64,000 bases of DNA from Pecten maximus. Lineage: Eukaryota. Below are positions 25,994-50,526 of this stretch, one piece after another. The translations under genes and the position numbers were made by a program. The notes below the pieces were generated by a model. That model was not told the DNA's origin. It did no database searches and was given only the letters and a program-made list of their open reading frames with translations. The first letter of the stretch is position 1; every line of letters begins with the position of its first letter. The stretch lies in contig NC_047021.1 in the NCBI RefSeq assembly GCF_902652985.1, forward strand, positions 43,958,001 to 44,022,000, read 5' to 3'.

Positions 25994-28900
25994 ATGTCTG
26001 CCCCAACACGGAATTTGACATTTTCTTCTTTACGATATTATCGATATCTCCTACGAGGTATGTATCGCATGGTATTATTTCGTAAGTTAAGTACATATTG
26101 AATATCTTCCTTTTGTTTAGCAACAAGCCAAATTAGCCGACTTGGACATCTATACCAAGTGAATCTTTTTGACAGAACATGCGCATCGTCCTCTTCAAAA
26201 ATAATAACATTAAACCAGAGACCTATATACTATATAGGTCTCTGATTAAACTTAGTTACTATAATATATACATTATATAGCTTTTTACATGTAGGTGAAG
26301 AAATCATGCCACCATTATCACTTACCAATAATTGCAGTGTAAAACCAGGTCAGATGAACATCATATATGCAATTTTCATAAATGAAATAAAATAATTAAC
26401 ATTTAAAAGAGGAGAGTAGATCAAAATCATATCGGATAGAAAAAGAGCCGACCAGCGGCCTCTTATGTTACAGGAGTAGGTACGTAACGATGTCTGAATA
26501 TAAAAAATAGCCTCGATATACTGCTTGGTTAGAGAGAAATTATCTTCGGCTCTATAAATTCCAATAATTTTTTGACTAACTTAGACAGGTGCTTCGTTAT
26601 CAAGTCAAGAAGCATTAGTGGTAACACACTCGCTTAAGTTACCTAAGGTTGATTCCCCTATAGGATAGGAAAGGTAAAGGTGCCGTGGTCAATTTTTTCT
26701 CCACAGTAAGACTCGAGCTTGCATGCTTTCATTTGGGCCAACAAGAGTGATTATCATAAGTTAACATTATATATAACTTGTTTCAGATTTGTTGTGAAAT
26801 AAATAAAATTTATTTGTTACAATACAAAGTCATGTAAACAGTTTTAGATTTGAATTATCTGTTTTGAATTGTTTTTGTCTAATGCATTGTTTAAAATATT
26901 TTTTTGAAGTTAGGAGAGGGTATTTGAGAAGTTAATGGTAAAGTTGTAATCTAATCACTTTGCAAATGCAAACTTAAAGCTCCCCCCCCCCCCCCCCCCC
27001 CCCCCCCCTCCCCTACCCCACCCAAAGTAAAAGATAAAAAAAAATTAACACTTCTGGGTACTGAGTTGAGAGTTGTACGTTATTCCATCAAACTATACTA
27101 TGTTGAAGCTTGTGTTATTATTGAATCGTGTGAGAACTTCAATCCTGTACTAACAATAATTCTATCAGACTATACTAAATTCTTCTGTCTTAAAGGAGTT
27201 TCCAAACCAGTGCAGTCTAGGGCAGCGTCAAGTTCATCAAGTGATGACCACACTGATAGGTAAGTATATATTTAGGAGGTATAGATCTGCACTAACAAGC
27301 TGAGATTTATCAGAAATCTTTAAGTTTTATTTGTCATGCTTTGACTATTTCCTCAACACTTGAATGTGTATCGATAATGACACTTTAAAACATCAAGTTG
27401 TAGGCAGCTTTAGCTTCTGTTGCATTGTCGTTGGTAACCCATGTTTGATTGTACTGTCACTTATGTTAAATTTATAGATGTGTAACGAGTCAAGGGTGTG
27501 TTACTAATAATATGCCTGTTGATAAGTCACCAATCAGGGTTGGTTCATTAATATAACATCCAGCAGGGAACCCAGTAGACCTTGACAGTATGTTTTTGAC
27601 TCTCCAAAATCATATTTGACTCTTGGGATTGAAGGAACATGTCTATTTGACATATGTTTCGACCCTTCAAATTTCTGAGAAATGACCGTTTGACTTCTGA
27701 AAACGCTAAAAATCAAGAGTCAACTGGATGCCCCTAATCCAGTCTTTACTTGTAACAGAGCTCAAAGTAGATATTTTTTACCAGGTGGCCTATTAATTGG
27801 CTACCAATTGCAATTAAGTCATAAAATCTAGGTGCCAATTGGAAAAGTTAGTCATCTGGTCTAGTTCGTTGTCGTAAGTTTGGGTAAAAAAACAACTCTT
27901 AATTCTTTAGATCAGCATAACATCTCTGTAACTTTTTTTTATTGTGATCATCATTTTAGCGTTGACTGCAACCTTTGAAAGATTAACCAAATCGCAAATT
28001 CACACAAATTTTTTAGTGGCCATGCAGGCGCCTTATAGGTCAATAACTGGTCGCCAATGTTGAATTTAAGGCGACATGGCCACTGAAATAGGTGCCACTT
28101 TGAGCCCTGTTGTACCATTATATTATACTGAATATTTGTTAAAATTTGTGGAGCTAAATTAAACAATTAATATTTCTCAGTGGTTCAAGGCGGTACTAGT
28201 TTGTAGGTATTAATTTCACACATAACCAACCTGTAACATTCGGCAGAATGTACTTCTACTTATTTTTCTATCAAGGTACAAATTTTCTTGGTGTTAATTT
28301 TGTTGGTGCTATATTCAAACGGCAACGAATGTAGTGAAATTAAATCCCCTAGGCAAATAACCAACCATGTAATAAGTCAAGCTAATTGTAACTTCCGACA
28401 TTTGTATTTCAGGAATTGTTTGCCTCAAGTTGGGAAGTCTTCAAAAACTGGTACTATTGTCTGTTTCCATCCAGAACCAGTATATCCATATGAATACACC
28501 TTGGTAAGCGATACATTATTAGAAATGAGGTCTTTGAGATGTTGTCCAAATTGTTCCGATGTTTGAACAACTTTTTCATATTGGTCTTGTAATGCCAAAA
28601 CAACATGGTAATATTGATAATATGTCATGATTATTTAAAAGTTTTTGAGATGTTGCTGTAATTGAAGATATGTGCTTTCATTTGTTGATAATTAGAGGGG
28701 GAGGAAGACACGCTTGATAGGGTAATAATATAACGAAAATATCTATACCAGCAACAAGCTTCAGAAAACAATGGTTTACACATCACGGATGCATAGAAAA
28801 AATGATGCAACAGTAAATTTGTATATTGATTTTGATATTGTAAGATGTTGACTTTTCCCATTACATTTCTTGCAATCCACCACATCTAGTGATCCACTGC

Positions 28901-42600: not shown

Positions 42601-45600
42601 GGTAATTTCTTGTGTAGTTTTGGCCCGTCTGTCCTTGGTTCCACCATACTGGAAGATTCCCTTGTTGACACTAAATCAGACAAGCAGTGACATGTCAATA
42701 TTCCTCATCATTCATATTGGTCAATTAACGTCTACAACTCCTCTGTACCAGTCTAGCATAAAATGGATACTGTAAAGTCACTTAATTTTATTGTAGTCCG
42801 AATGGGATATGAATGAATCTACATTCGTTTGTGTAAATTCTGGTTGAACATTGCACATATTTGGAGATGTATACAGTTGTTGAATGAAATATTTGCGATT
42901 TCTTGAAAATAACACTGCATAATTATATCATTTACGGTTAAAATTTCTTAACAATCAGCTCAACATGACATAAGCTAGTTAGGGCTGTTCTAGGAAAACT
43001 TATATGGAACGGGGGGACAGTACTTTAATAAAATCACATCGATGGATTGGTGGGGTTTGAAATAAATTTATTCTGGGTGTATCTGATATTTTTGTACCAT
43101 TTTTTACATTAAAATTGCTTCTATACCAGGGTACCGTTCACAAAAAACTGGATATAAGGGAGGGTCATACAAATTTTAAATCCCCCGTCCCCTGTGTGTT
43201 TTCCTGGAACAGCCCTTAGGGCTATTCCAGTAAAATATCTACCCCACCCCAGGACTCCAGGTTTGGTTAAGGGGTACCACCTATAGAATATATTTAACAA
43301 ATTACAAAGAAGTAATAGTAAGGAAATCCAACCACGGATAAAAGTGATTTATTTTGGAGTCTTGGGGTCAGGTAGACATTTTAATGGAAAAGCCCTTATT
43401 GTTTTACCACCTTCATGACTCCACCTACTGAGCATGACAGAATCAATACAACTTGATCCTTACAACGAAAAGTATTCACACAGAAACCTGTAACAGACAC
43501 TGGAGGACTCGTCCCTGACCAACTTCTACTCAACCAGGCTTATTGAGTCTGAGCAAGAAAAACTTTTTTCTCTGAAAACTTGGCGCTGACACAGGAATAT
43601 GATGAAACTCTCATCATTTACAGGAAGGCCTGAGAGTGAACCATGCAGCTTTCTCATATACTCCACAGGGAGATCCTGTGGTTGCTCGGAATCGGATAAA
43701 TTGATGTCACATTGGGTAGAGAAAGACAACAGCTGGAATGTGCTATATTGCCAATCATAATAGTGTAACGTCATCATTTATGTAGTGTAACCACGTCACA
43801 AACTGATGACATCATTAATTACGATGCACATTTGATGGGATGTTGATGATGGTGAGATGGTTTCACAACACTTTACATTCCGTTACTTTTTTAAGTAGAG
43901 TTGTATGTGAGAAAAATAATCAAACATGGGCCTGTGCCATGAATATGTAACCCTGGTAAATACTAGCTGCAATATACCGCTCGGCTAGAGAGATCTTCTC
44001 TTTAGCTCGATCGGTTGAGTGTAAGACTAGTAAGCCAGAGGTCCCGGGTTCGATCCCTAGCGGAGGCAGTGATTTAAATTTAATTAATCATGCGCTCTGT
44101 TACATTGGCGCCCACGTAGGGACTCGGGAATGATACTCATCGCTGCTTGCGAAAGCATCGCTGTTACCCCTGGAAACTCGAGGACGAGTTCTTTCCTGGA
44201 GGGGGAGTATGTAACCCTGGTAAATACTAGCCGCAATATACCGCTCGGCTAGAGAGATCTTCTCTTTAGCTCGATCGGTTGAGCGGGAGAATAGTAAGCC
44301 AGAGGTCCTGGGTTCGATCCCTAGCGGAGGCAGTGATTTGAAATTAATTAATCATGCACTCTGTTACAGACAGGGATATCTCAACCCTTGTGTAAGATTT
44401 TGGCCATTCAGCACTTTACAAACCTCATGATGACCAGCCAAACTCTTACATTTGGGTTGAGATGTCCCTGTCCACAGCACGGGCCAATGTAAGATTCTAT
44501 TAATCTAAATCTCTCCCATCTTCGCTAGCCACGGCTTCTGATTATGTTACACTCCACGAACCCTTGGCAGATATAGTTGTGTTTAAACTGTCGCGCCCTG
44601 AAATCCCAGGTTATCCAATCAAATCACGTTTTACATTCTGGCTTGGTTTCCCAGTAAACAAAAATACAGAGACATACAATCTTTGGGGAAACATTCGCAG
44701 TGTTTGATAAATCCATTTAAGTTATTGATCACATATCTCATCGAAATGACACAAGCCTCCATGTGTGTTTGTTAATATCACTGATGAAGTAAATTGGTAA
44801 CGCTCGTTGTGATTGGTCGAAAATTTCATGCGTAAAGGGTGGTAATTTTGAATCTCGGCTAGAGGGCAAGAACTGTCGCCTATATCTGCCAAGGGTTCGT
44901 GGAGTGTAACGTAATCAGAAGCCTTGGCTAGCGAAGATGAAGCGAAGATGAATCTATCCATACAGTTGAGACAGATGCATTACTTACTGTAACATATGAG
45001 CAAGTTTAAAGATAGCATCCATAGTGTCTTTGTTTTCCTTGTAGAGGGTGAAGCGACAGTAATCACCTTGTTCACCAGACCAGCGTCGTTTTCGATGATG
45101 CTTCCCATGGCGATGACCCGGATTACTTTTACCTGAAATCAAAAACATGAAACTACTCTTTAAATCTGTATCTTAGAACAAAGATGAGATGTCTAGAGGA
45201 AAACTCAAAAGAAATAAATATATGAAAATTTCACTGTGTTGAATTGAAGAGGAAAACAACTTGATATCTAAATGAACCCCCAATTATTATATAAATGGCT
45301 ATACTGTATTTGACCCAATATACCCAGTGTGCACTTACAAAAACACAAAAGGAAGCTCTTACTAAAACCATGTAAATTTTCCATATGAAATGAGTGAGAA
45401 AATCTTTTTTTCCATTTATATATACAATGTATATTTTTCATGGTTAAAAGTCTGAAGGTTACATTAGCAGATTAGTAACATAAAGATCTATTTATATGTT
45501 TCAATTATAGCGCACCTGTCCACTTTTCCTGAAAAAAGGTGGGGTGAACTTATAGGGGCAAATGTGAATATTAAGTGAAATATGGTATATATATTTGTCA

Positions 45601-48842: not shown

Positions 48843-49189
48843 CTTGGTGATCTTAAATGCAAAACGTAAAATAATTCCATCAAGAAAAAAAACAATGAAT
48901 ATTATTGGTATACCTTCAATATGAATTCTATAACATATGTCCATATACTAAAAAATATTTCAAGACATTTCTAATAACTTCTAGCATTTTACTTTGAAAA
49001 ATATACATATACATGTACTTGTACAAGTTACATATATACAGAAGAAGGAATAATAAAAAATTTCAGCCCTTGCAGTAAAATAAAATAGTGAGGGAATAAT
49101 ACAATTAATTTATTAAAGGGAATTAGTGATCTTTTGCTCTCTTATATTAGTGGACATCCTATAACTAGGGAGCAGGTGGTTATTAGGTA

Positions 49190-50526
49190 AAGTCAAACTC
49201 CCACCAGCCTACACTAATCACATGACTGTCAAACTCCCACAGGCCTACGCTAATCACATGACTGTCAAACTCCCACAGGCCTACGCTAATCACATGACTG
49301 TCAAACTCCCACCAGCCTACGCTAATCACATGACTGTCAAACTCCCACCAGCCTACGCTAATCACATGACTGTCAAACTCCCACAGGCCTACGCTAATCA
49401 CATGACTGTCAAACTCCCACCAGCCTACGCTAATCACATGACTGTCAAACTCCCACCAGCCTACGCTAATCACATGACTGTCAAACTCCCACAGGCCTAC
49501 GCTAATCACATGACTGTCAAACTCCCACAGGCCTACCCTAATCACATGGCTGTCAAACTACCACAGGCCTACGCTAATCACATGACTGTCAAACTCCCAC
49601 CAGCCTACGCTAATCACATGACTGTCAAACTCCCACCAGCCTACGCTAATCACATGACTGTCAAACTACCACAGGCCTACACTTATCACCTGACTGTCAA
49701 ACTCCCACCAGCCTACGCTAATCACATGACTGTCAAACTCCCACCAGCCTACACTAATCACATGACTGTCAAACTCCCACAGGCCTACACTAATCACATG
49801 ACTGTCAAACTCCCACCAGCCTACGCTAATCACATGACTGTCAAACTCCCGACAGCCTACGCCAATCACATGACTGTCAAACTCCCGACAGCCTACGCCA
49901 ATCACATGACTGTCAAACTCCCACAGGCCTACACTAATCACATGACTGTCAAACTCCCACAGGCCTACACTAATCACATGACTGTCAAACTCCCACCAGC
50001 CTACCCTAATCACATGACTGTCAAACTCCCACCAGCCTACGCCAATCACATGACTGTCAAACTCCCGACAGCCTACGCCAATCACATGACTGTCAAACTC
50101 CCACAGGCCTACACTAATCACATGACTGTCAAACTCCCACCAGCCTACGCTAATCACATGACTGTCAAACTACCACAAGCCTACGCTAATCACATGACTG
50201 TCAAACTCCCACCAGCCTACACTAATCACATGACTGTCAAACTCCCACCAGCCTACACTAATCACATGACTGTCAAACTCCCACAGGCCTACACTAATCA
50301 CATGACTGTCAAACTCCCACAGGCCTACCCTAATCACATGACTGTCAAACTCACACCAGCCTACGCCAATCACATGACTGTCAAACTCCCACAGGCCTAC
50401 CCTAATCACATGACTGTCAAACTCCCGACAGCCTACCCTAATCACATGACTGTCAAACTCCCGACAGCCTACCCTAATCACATGACTATCAAACTCCCAC
50501 CAGCCTACGCTAATCACATGACTATG
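49190..50526. repeat. 36-bp minisatellite, ~37 copies
   Basis: Unit ACTGTCAAACTCCCAC(C/A)(A/G)GCCTAC(G/A/C)CTAATCACATG. Confidence 0.97.

What the first reader, a model, noticed from the sequence alone, without database searches (positions are those of the whole stretch)
43946..44368. Second, sequence-unrelated TRIM family also carrying a tRNA-like promoter in its LTR
Seen: 159-bp LTRs (~94% identical, 9 differences by hand count) and a 105-bp interior with a small hairpin (TGCTTGCGAAAGCA). The PPT is GGAGGGGGAG. The LTR holds TAGCTCGATCGGTTGAG..CTAGTAA..GAGGTCCCGGGTTCGATCCCTAGCGGAGGC. Knowledge: the CTAGTAA loop and the CC(C/T)GGGTTCGA.CCC.AGCGG end resemble metazoan tRNA-Thr(AGT). The PBS TGGCGCCC-ACGTAGGG resembles the tRNA-Lys(CTT) PBS TGGCGCCCAACGTGGGG. 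Unlike family 2, there is no T4+ terminator right after the tRNA-like part, so Pol III could run through the PBS and interior.
Basis: partly seen in the sequence, partly recalled or inferred. Interest (0 to 1): 0.72.

Follow-up and report, generated by a model that had tools for sequence, protein, structure and literature searches.

The report
Known scallop mini-retrotransposon; Gypsy helpers traced
This is an ordinary copy of a tiny, gene-less jumping element published in 2024 (Helenus-1_PeMa), but other copies in the genome are fused to the ends of several full-size Gypsy retrotransposons, which likely identifies the helpers that copy it.

Summary
Real, and already known. The 423-bp element (159 + 105 + 159 bp) is a copy of Helenus-1_PeMa (Kojima 2024), differing from the published sequence at about 10 of 423 bases by eye. 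The scan met this family before on other DNA (e1-9360355). The genome holds hundreds of copies; 45 of 60 complete ones have 4-bp target duplications, though this copy's is degenerate.

Three additions were not found in print by my searches. (1) The primer site matches host tRNA-Lys(UUU) at 21 of 21 bases, not Lys(CUU) with a gap. (2) Young Ty3/Gypsy elements share that primer site, the purine tract and an AGGA-loop hairpin 29 nt before the 3' LTR, with different but complementary stems. (3) In 10 of 103 copies a foreign LTR replaces the Helenus 5' LTR exactly at the primer site. Three of these have a clean target duplication at a homology-fixed Gypsy LTR start, and one carries a full tRNA-copied primer site absent from its donor family's normal copies. 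These are likely fossils of reverse transcription in shared particles.

Pol III transcription remains untested: only assembled RNA contigs were available.

The parts
43946..44104 (+). 5' LTR (159 bp, TGTAAC...GTTACA)
   Evidence: 2 differences from the published Helenus-1_PeMa LTR, by eye
43996..44068 (+). tRNA-Thr(AGT)-like segment of the 5' LTR: box A about 44003-44014, anticodon loop CTAGTAA 44027-44033, box B about 44048-44058; anticodon stem broken
   Evidence: 48 of 74 identical to host tRNA-Thr(AGT); not called by ARAGORN or Rfam
44106..44123 (+). Primer-binding site, complementary to the 3' end of host tRNA-Lys(UUU); the match runs on to 44126
44144..44157 (+).
44175..44190 (+). AGGA-loop hairpin (AACTCG-AGGA-CGAGTT), loop starting 29 nt before the 3' LTR; same place in Gypsy families A, B, C and E with other stems
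44198..44209 (+). Polypurine tract GGAGGGGGAG plus TA
44210..44368 (+). 3' LTR (159 bp), tRNA-like part 44260-44332
   Evidence: 7 differences from the published LTR, by eye
43942..43945 (+). Left flank AATA: degenerate or missing target-site duplication (right flank GACA at 44369-44372)
43903..44500 (.). Older foldback repeat that the element interrupts (limits approximate)
   Evidence: RNA contigs join about 43930-43940 to 44369-44371; 13 of 14 paralogues read straight through from a homologous left arm

Best explanation
This is one copy of Helenus-1_PeMa, a non-coding LTR mini-retrotransposon (TRIM) that is likely transcribed by Pol III from the tRNA-derived boxes in its LTR and likely reverse-transcribed and integrated by proteins of Lys-primed Ty3/Gypsy elements. 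Shown: structure, family identity, copy number, 4-bp duplications, an exact primer match to host tRNA-Lys(UUU), same-primer Gypsy elements with long ORFs and near-identical LTRs, a shared hairpin and purine tract, and hybrids joined at the primer site. Inferred: Pol III starts near the tRNA-like 5' end and runs through the interior into LTR2; the RNA enters Gypsy particles; tRNA-Lys primes the minus strand and the purine tract the plus strand; sometimes the plus-strand strong-stop DNA of a co-packaged Gypsy anneals to the Helenus primer site, giving Gypsy-LTR/Helenus hybrids; the hairpin is a cis signal read by the helper machinery. The tRNA-like part is a promoter relic, not a working tRNA.
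For: Family: motifs from the window found in Data S1 of PMC10886601; Table S1 gives LTR 159, interior 105, total 423, TSD 4. TSD in 45 of 60 complete copies against 2.2% for shuffled flanks. Primer: 26 host matches, 9 of 10 fetched called tRNA-Lys(TTT); both isodecoder variants occur in primer sites (55 T, 5 C of 60); one copy (L008) has a 17-nt Lys(CUU)-type site. Helpers: 11 of the first 100 primer-site matches follow a non-Helenus LTR end; of 7 fetched, 6 have pol ORFs of 1330-1500 aa and LTR pairs 99.2-100% alike; the 5 scanned show RT-RNaseH-integrase order; families A and C have 4-bp TSDs. Hairpin: the only AGGA loop with a stem of 5 or more Watson-Crick pairs in each of 5 of 7 Gypsy loci, 29 nt before the 3' LTR, against 3 in 295,890 nt of background. 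Hybrids: 10 of 103 elements; TSD at a homology-fixed Gypsy LTR start in L231, L236, L237; L231 has the full 18-nt Lys(CUU) complement whereas 8 normal 5' ends of its donor family have 12 nt; that family is Gypsy.
Against: No direct evidence of Pol III transcription: the RNA runs are contigs, and those carrying the LTR are mostly 0.2-3.7 kb host transcripts on both strands. There is no T4 terminator in LTR2 either, so the 3' end of the RNA is unexplained. Conservation of boxes A and B within the family is weak evidence: shared variants are few nearly everywhere except the U5 tail. 15 of 60 complete copies, including this one, lack a TSD. Of the 10 hybrids one has no TSD (L230), three could not be judged (L232, L234, L235) and two rest on a candidate LTR start (L233, L239). 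The C/T primer-site variant lies in a CpG and could be methylation decay. No hairpin was found by my scan in family D or in the deleted B copy L176, and the Helenus stem shows no compensatory change within the family.
Confidence: 0.85

Rival explanations
1. Same element, but the transposing RNA is made by Pol II (from U3 or by read-through from host genes); the tRNA boxes are an inert relic of an old SINE insertion.
For: RNA contigs holding the LTR are mostly long host transcripts on either strand. No Pol III terminator in LTR2. Kojima states that only Cassandra is validated as Pol III-driven.
Against: Boxes A and B are intact in both LTRs while the anticodon stem is broken, and the paper reports the same pattern across Helenus families.
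Confidence: 0.1
2. The Gypsy-LTR/Helenus hybrids arose in the genome after insertion, by deletion or recombination across the shared 18-bp primer site, and say nothing about co-packaging.
For: L235 reads foreign LTR, primer site, Helenus unit, primer site, foreign sequence, which a DNA crossover could give. L230 lacks a TSD. Recombination products are common in TRIMs (PMC13570524 passages).
Against: A TSD encloses the whole hybrid in L231, L236, L237 and the inverted-LTR composite L238. The full-length tRNA-Lys(CUU) complement in L231 is not in the donor family's normal copies. Head-to-head joins through the self-complementary primer site (L247/L248, L136) point to annealing of strong-stop DNAs.
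Confidence: 0.15
3. The LTR encodes a functional tRNA-Thr(AGT) that the element spreads.
For: The AGT loop sits at the anticodon position and the D-stem pairs in most copies. The paper predicts a possible tRNA-Thr for seven bivalve families.
Against: By my reading only 2 of 5 anticodon-stem pairs form (one a wobble). ARAGORN and Rfam call nothing here. The host has its own intact Thr(AGT) genes.
Confidence: 0.02

Closest known systems
Helenus-1_PeMa (Pecten maximus; Kojima 2024, PMC10886601, Data S1, Table S1, Fig. S2C)
   Same: Identical lengths (159/105/423), 4-bp TSD, about 413 of 423 bases identical by eye.
   Different: Only copy-level mutations. The paper files its primer under tRNA-Lys-CTT of Aplysia with a gap and pairs it with an oyster element, Gypsy-125_CGi; here it matches host Lys(UUU) exactly. 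The main text names no helper in this genome, no hairpin before the purine tract and no hybrids.
Helenus-3_MiYe and Helenus-1_MiYe (Mizuhopecten yessoensis; same paper)
   Same: Same LTR ends, primer site with the C variant, and a hairpin before the purine tract, by eye.
   Different: Sister families in another scallop. The second interior subfamily seen here (about 83-88% to the window copy) resembles Helenus-3_MiYe by eye.
Cassandra TRIMs (as described in PMC10886601; original paper not read)
   Same: Non-coding LTR element with a small-RNA-derived Pol III promoter in the LTR.
   Different: 5S rRNA-derived, plants, transcription shown by experiment; helper unknown.
Template-switch complex insertions (Sabot and Schulman 2007, PMC1950507)
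   Same: TSD-flanked composites explained by two RNAs in one particle.
   Different: There the switch is at R between close relatives and the outer LTRs are alike; here the join is at the primer site between unrelated elements and the two LTRs are wholly different.

Membership tests
Helenus (TRIMp3) | Short (about 0.3-1.3 kb), two LTRs, no coding capacity | tested here: met
   423 bp with a 105-bp interior
Helenus (TRIMp3) | [quoted passage not shown] | tested here: met
   TAGCT, CGG and GGTTC in both LTRs; definition
Helenus (TRIMp3) | Primer-binding site complementary to a tRNA 3' end, and a purine tract | tested here: met
   21 of 21 to host tRNA-Lys(UUU); GGAGGGGGAG before LTR2
Helenus (TRIMp3) | 4-bp TSD in animal families | tested here: met
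   45 of 60 complete copies, chance 2.2%; degenerate in the window copy itself
Helenus (TRIMp3) | tRNA-like part unlikely to be a functional tRNA | tested here: met
   No ARAGORN or Rfam call; broken anticodon stem
Helenus (TRIMp3) | Transcription by RNA polymerase III | not testable with these tools
   Only assembled contigs were served; not validated in the paper either
Helenus-1_PeMa | Sequence and lengths match the published family | tested here: met
   Supplement search and Table S1 row; difference count by eye, consistent with per-site counts
Gypsy-mobilised TRIM | Autonomous Ty3/Gypsy elements with the same primer, purine tract and TSD length in the same genome | tested here: met
Gypsy-mobilised TRIM | Mobilisation in trans shown by experiment | not testable with these tools
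   Only fossil hybrids
tRNA-derived SINE | No LTR pair, A-rich or simple-repeat tail, variable TSD (recalled definition) | tested here: not met
   Two LTRs, primer site, purine tract, fixed 4-bp TSD

The most novel reading that the evidence does not exclude
Helenus-1 is a generalist hitch-hiker. It shares no LTR homology with its helpers but is packaged by several Lys-primed Ty3/Gypsy families through three short cis signals: the primer site, a hairpin fixed 29 nt before the 3' LTR, and the purine tract. Hybrids joined at the primer site, about a tenth of the copies examined, are a fossil record that names the helpers, and the same read-out could assign helpers to orphan TRIMs such as Cassandra.
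Probability: 0.6. Interest if true: 0.55.

Novelty: already known. Interest (0 to 1): 0.33.

Why it matters
The element itself adds nothing: the exact family is published. What matters is the side result. Kojima 2024 says it is not known how a TRIM's dependence on its autonomous partner is maintained, and a 2026 sugar beet study could link only 30 of 115 families to an autonomous element by similarity and suggests generalist use of helpers. Hybrids joined at the primer site give a homology-free way to name helpers, and the fixed-position hairpin is a concrete candidate for the signal they recognise.

Tried and rejected
RNA evidence: 24 runs listed, all Logan contigs, only 2 on record as RNA. 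Four were laid. LTR depth is far above interior depth, and with both LTRs summed by eye there is no clear step at the tRNA-like start. One X12 contig spans interior, purine tract and LTR2 without differences. Contigs cannot show start, strand or polymerase, so none of this is used as support.
Host tRNA-Thr: three patterns found nothing or only decayed Helenus copies; a looser one found the genes.
Window copy as an unusual chimera: its 9 LTR differences looked extreme among the 30 best hits but lie within the 0-19 range of the wider set, and six of the seven LTR2 variants are rare in other copies. Rejected.
Selection on boxes A and B from variants shared by both LTRs: too little variation.
Reciprocal hybrids (Helenus LTR plus Gypsy interior): L178 and L179 are not such; L235/L263 unresolved, no second foreign LTR within 9.7 kb. 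No 5' LTR or primer site was found for the Gypsy interior upstream of L232.
Mapping the R region from linkage between LTR variants was considered and dropped: a single RNA carries U3 and U5, so no breakpoint is expected.
Literature searches for the hairpin and for primer-site hybrids listed no direct description; I saw only listings for most hits, and subscription papers and Repbase entries are outside the library.

Full report
Observation. The element is as described. LTR1 (43946-44104) and LTR2 (44210-44368) are 159 bp each and differ at 9 sites without gaps; the interior is 105 bp; the + strand has no T4 run. ARAGORN and Rfam call no tRNA here, though both call the tRNA-like LTRs of the other TRIM at 50942 and 51190. 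A search of the own genome gave 42 full-length matches at 95% or more from only 40 of 2383 candidates scored. Exact patterns give 851 LTR and 311 primer-site matches, with none for the reversed controls.

Identity. The first literature search returned Kojima 2024. I read its whole main text and, of the supplement, passages of Data S1, part 10 (Fig. S2 and the start of Table S1) and one Table S1 row. Helenus-1_PeMa from Pecten maximus has LTR 159, interior 105, total 423 and a 4-bp TSD. By eye the window copy differs from the published sequence at 2 sites in LTR1, 1 in the interior and 7 in LTR2; per-site counts in 59 other copies agree that these are the minority states.

Copies. I pooled 29 loci from the best-hit search with loci around the first 100 of the 311 primer-site matches (contigs C1-C6), dropping five duplicate loci: 115 loci, 103 elements with LTR and interior, 60 complete at both ends. 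45 of the 60 have a perfect 4-bp TSD (2.2% for shuffled flanks), mostly AT-rich, and LTR pairs differ at 0-19 sites. The window copy has AATA and GACA. It interrupts an older foldback repeat whose paralogues read straight through, so the flanks are probably a decayed or imperfect GACA duplication (inference). Interior positions 20-48 split into two subfamilies, while the primer site and positions 49-105 are shared.

Primer. The reverse complement of the primer site plus a T-loop found 26 host sites; 9 of 10 fetched are tRNA-Lys(TTT) genes of two isodecoders. The window site matches one at 21 of 21 bases counting CCA. The two isodecoders mirror the C and T variants in primer sites (5 and 55 of 60), though CpG decay could also give T. 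One complete copy with identical LTRs and a TSD (L008) has a 17-nt Lys(CUU)-type site, as expected if the site is copied from whichever tRNA primed.

tRNA-like part. Host tRNA-Thr(AGT) genes were found at the fourth answered pattern. The LTR matches at 48 of 74 with one gap, including the anticodon loop and the acceptor core; Lys, Arg and Gln genes give 44, 42 and 32 of 73 ungapped. Thr origin is therefore the best of four tested, not proven. Boxes A and B fit the motifs that define Helenus; the anticodon stem is broken.

Helpers. Thirteen primer-site matches had no Helenus interior; 11 follow a foreign LTR end. I fetched 7 of the 11. Six have pol ORFs of 1330-1500 aa and LTR pairs 99.2-100% alike, in five families (A-E); one is a deleted B copy. 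The five scanned have RT, RNase H and integrase in Ty3/Gypsy order. A and C have 4-bp TSDs; the B copy has none. None shows LTR similarity to Helenus beyond short ends.

A shared hairpin. Helenus has AACTCG-AGGA-CGAGTT, with predicted pair probabilities 0.86-0.98 for five of six pairs. A, B, C and E have AAGACG/CGTCTT, ATGGCG/CGCCAT, AAGATG/CATCTT and TGACG/CGTCA around the same loop, each the only such hairpin in about 10 kb and each 29 nt before the 3' LTR; background is 3 in 295,890 nt. A pattern with variable spacing gave 43 matches, 35 at distance 29. It was built from these families, so it is not independent. In the 30 loci fetched, all 26 non-Helenus hits pair for 4-6 bases although only the closing pair was in the pattern; the 4 Helenus hits were selected for a mutated stem. 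D and the deleted B copy gave no hit. By eye, a Lys(CUU)-primed family (G) has a GGGT-loop hairpin at the same distance, and several published Helenus interiors with other primers have purine-loop hairpins at 28-32. It is thus probably a general signal rather than a specificity tag.

Hybrids. In 10 of 103 elements (8 of the 74 from the primer-site set) a foreign LTR ending in CA stands exactly where the Helenus 5' LTR should be. L237 carries a family C LTR (97.7% over 310 bp); L231 and L236 carry family G LTRs (best 97.9% and 89.0%), and G is a Gypsy family with identical LTR pairs. In these three the 4 bases before the homology-fixed LTR start equal the 4 after the Helenus end (ATCA, TTTC, TTTG). 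L238 is a TSD-flanked composite with an inverted LTR. L233 and L239 have a TSD at a candidate start only; L230 has none; L232, L234 and L235 could not be judged. The strongest sign is L231: its primer site is the full 18-nt complement of host tRNA-Lys(CUU), whereas 8 normal 5' ends of family G have only 12 nt. From established LTR replication (recalled), plus-strand strong-stop DNA copies 18 nt of the primer tRNA, so this join is what transfer of a Gypsy strong-stop DNA onto a Helenus minus strand would give. Head-to-head joins through the self-complementary primer site (G with G in L247/L248; Helenus with the L233-type LTR in L136) fit the same chemistry. L003 fuses a family B LTR to Helenus, followed by inverted B interior.

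Transcription. Not resolved. All runs were contigs. The absence of T4 allows read-through, but it also leaves termination in LTR2 unexplained.

Comparison. The element is a member of a published family. Template-switch composites are known (PMC1950507, whole text read), but at R and between close relatives. Chimeric TRIMs and generalist helper use are proposed for sugar beet (PMC13570524, passages). No partner was found for biv-TRIM (PMC6934838, passages). A 2025 meeting report only mentions Helenus (PMC12859917, passages). My searches for the hairpin, for primer-site hybrids and for Helenus follow-ups listed no description; most hits were seen as listings only, and Repbase entries, subscription papers and unread supplement parts could hold one.

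Verdict. Already known; interest 0.33. Family identity is near certain. The full mechanism, Pol III RNA carried by Lys-primed Gypsy particles, I put at 0.85, with the Gypsy link well supported by fossils and the Pol III step inferred only.

Noticed in passing
window 50911-51285: The other TRIM ('family 2'): about 127-bp LTRs 91% alike, TSD CATA, His-type primer site, T5 after the tRNA-like part. Its LTR resembles Helenus-2_PeMa by eye but the interior does not, and its primer motif had 0 hits in the supplement. ARAGORN miscalls both LTRs as tRNA-Thr genes.
   Followed up: partly
window 52246-52360: Intron-containing tRNA gene, by its sequence tRNA-Leu(CAA), followed by a T-run.
   Followed up: no
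window about 43903-44500 and 44517-44900: Foldback repeat with many paralogues (827 candidates for its right part) hosting the Helenus copy; a second inverted-repeat element follows and is deeply covered in RNA contigs.
   Followed up: partly
window 26501-26555: Weak 55-bp match (about 75%) to the U3 part of the Helenus LTR; possibly an old fragment.
   Followed up: no
L003 (G000:C9:38443612-38446082): Family B Gypsy LTR fused to Helenus at a 2-bp microhomology, then 1158 bp of inverted B interior joined precisely at the Helenus CA end; looks like an aberrant integration product.
   Followed up: partly
L247/L248 (G000:C17:21162676-21163615): Two family G LTRs head to head, joined through a full-length self-complementary Lys(CUU) primer site.
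   Followed up: partly
L035-L038 (C9) and contigs C400, C401: Tandem clusters of tRNA-Lys(UUU), Gln and Arg genes; 18 of 26 primer matches are the U6-A67 isodecoder.
   Followed up: no
L165-L168 (C15, C3916) and L173 (C15:35872500-35875600): Decayed Helenus LTR pieces amplified inside larger repeats or tandem arrays; ARAGORN gives spurious Tyr and Asn calls in L173.
   Followed up: no
window 1-2400, 4100-5000, 22000, 31450, 35400, 40550, 49050-50400: Many minisatellite arrays with periods of 17-36 bp.
   Followed up: no
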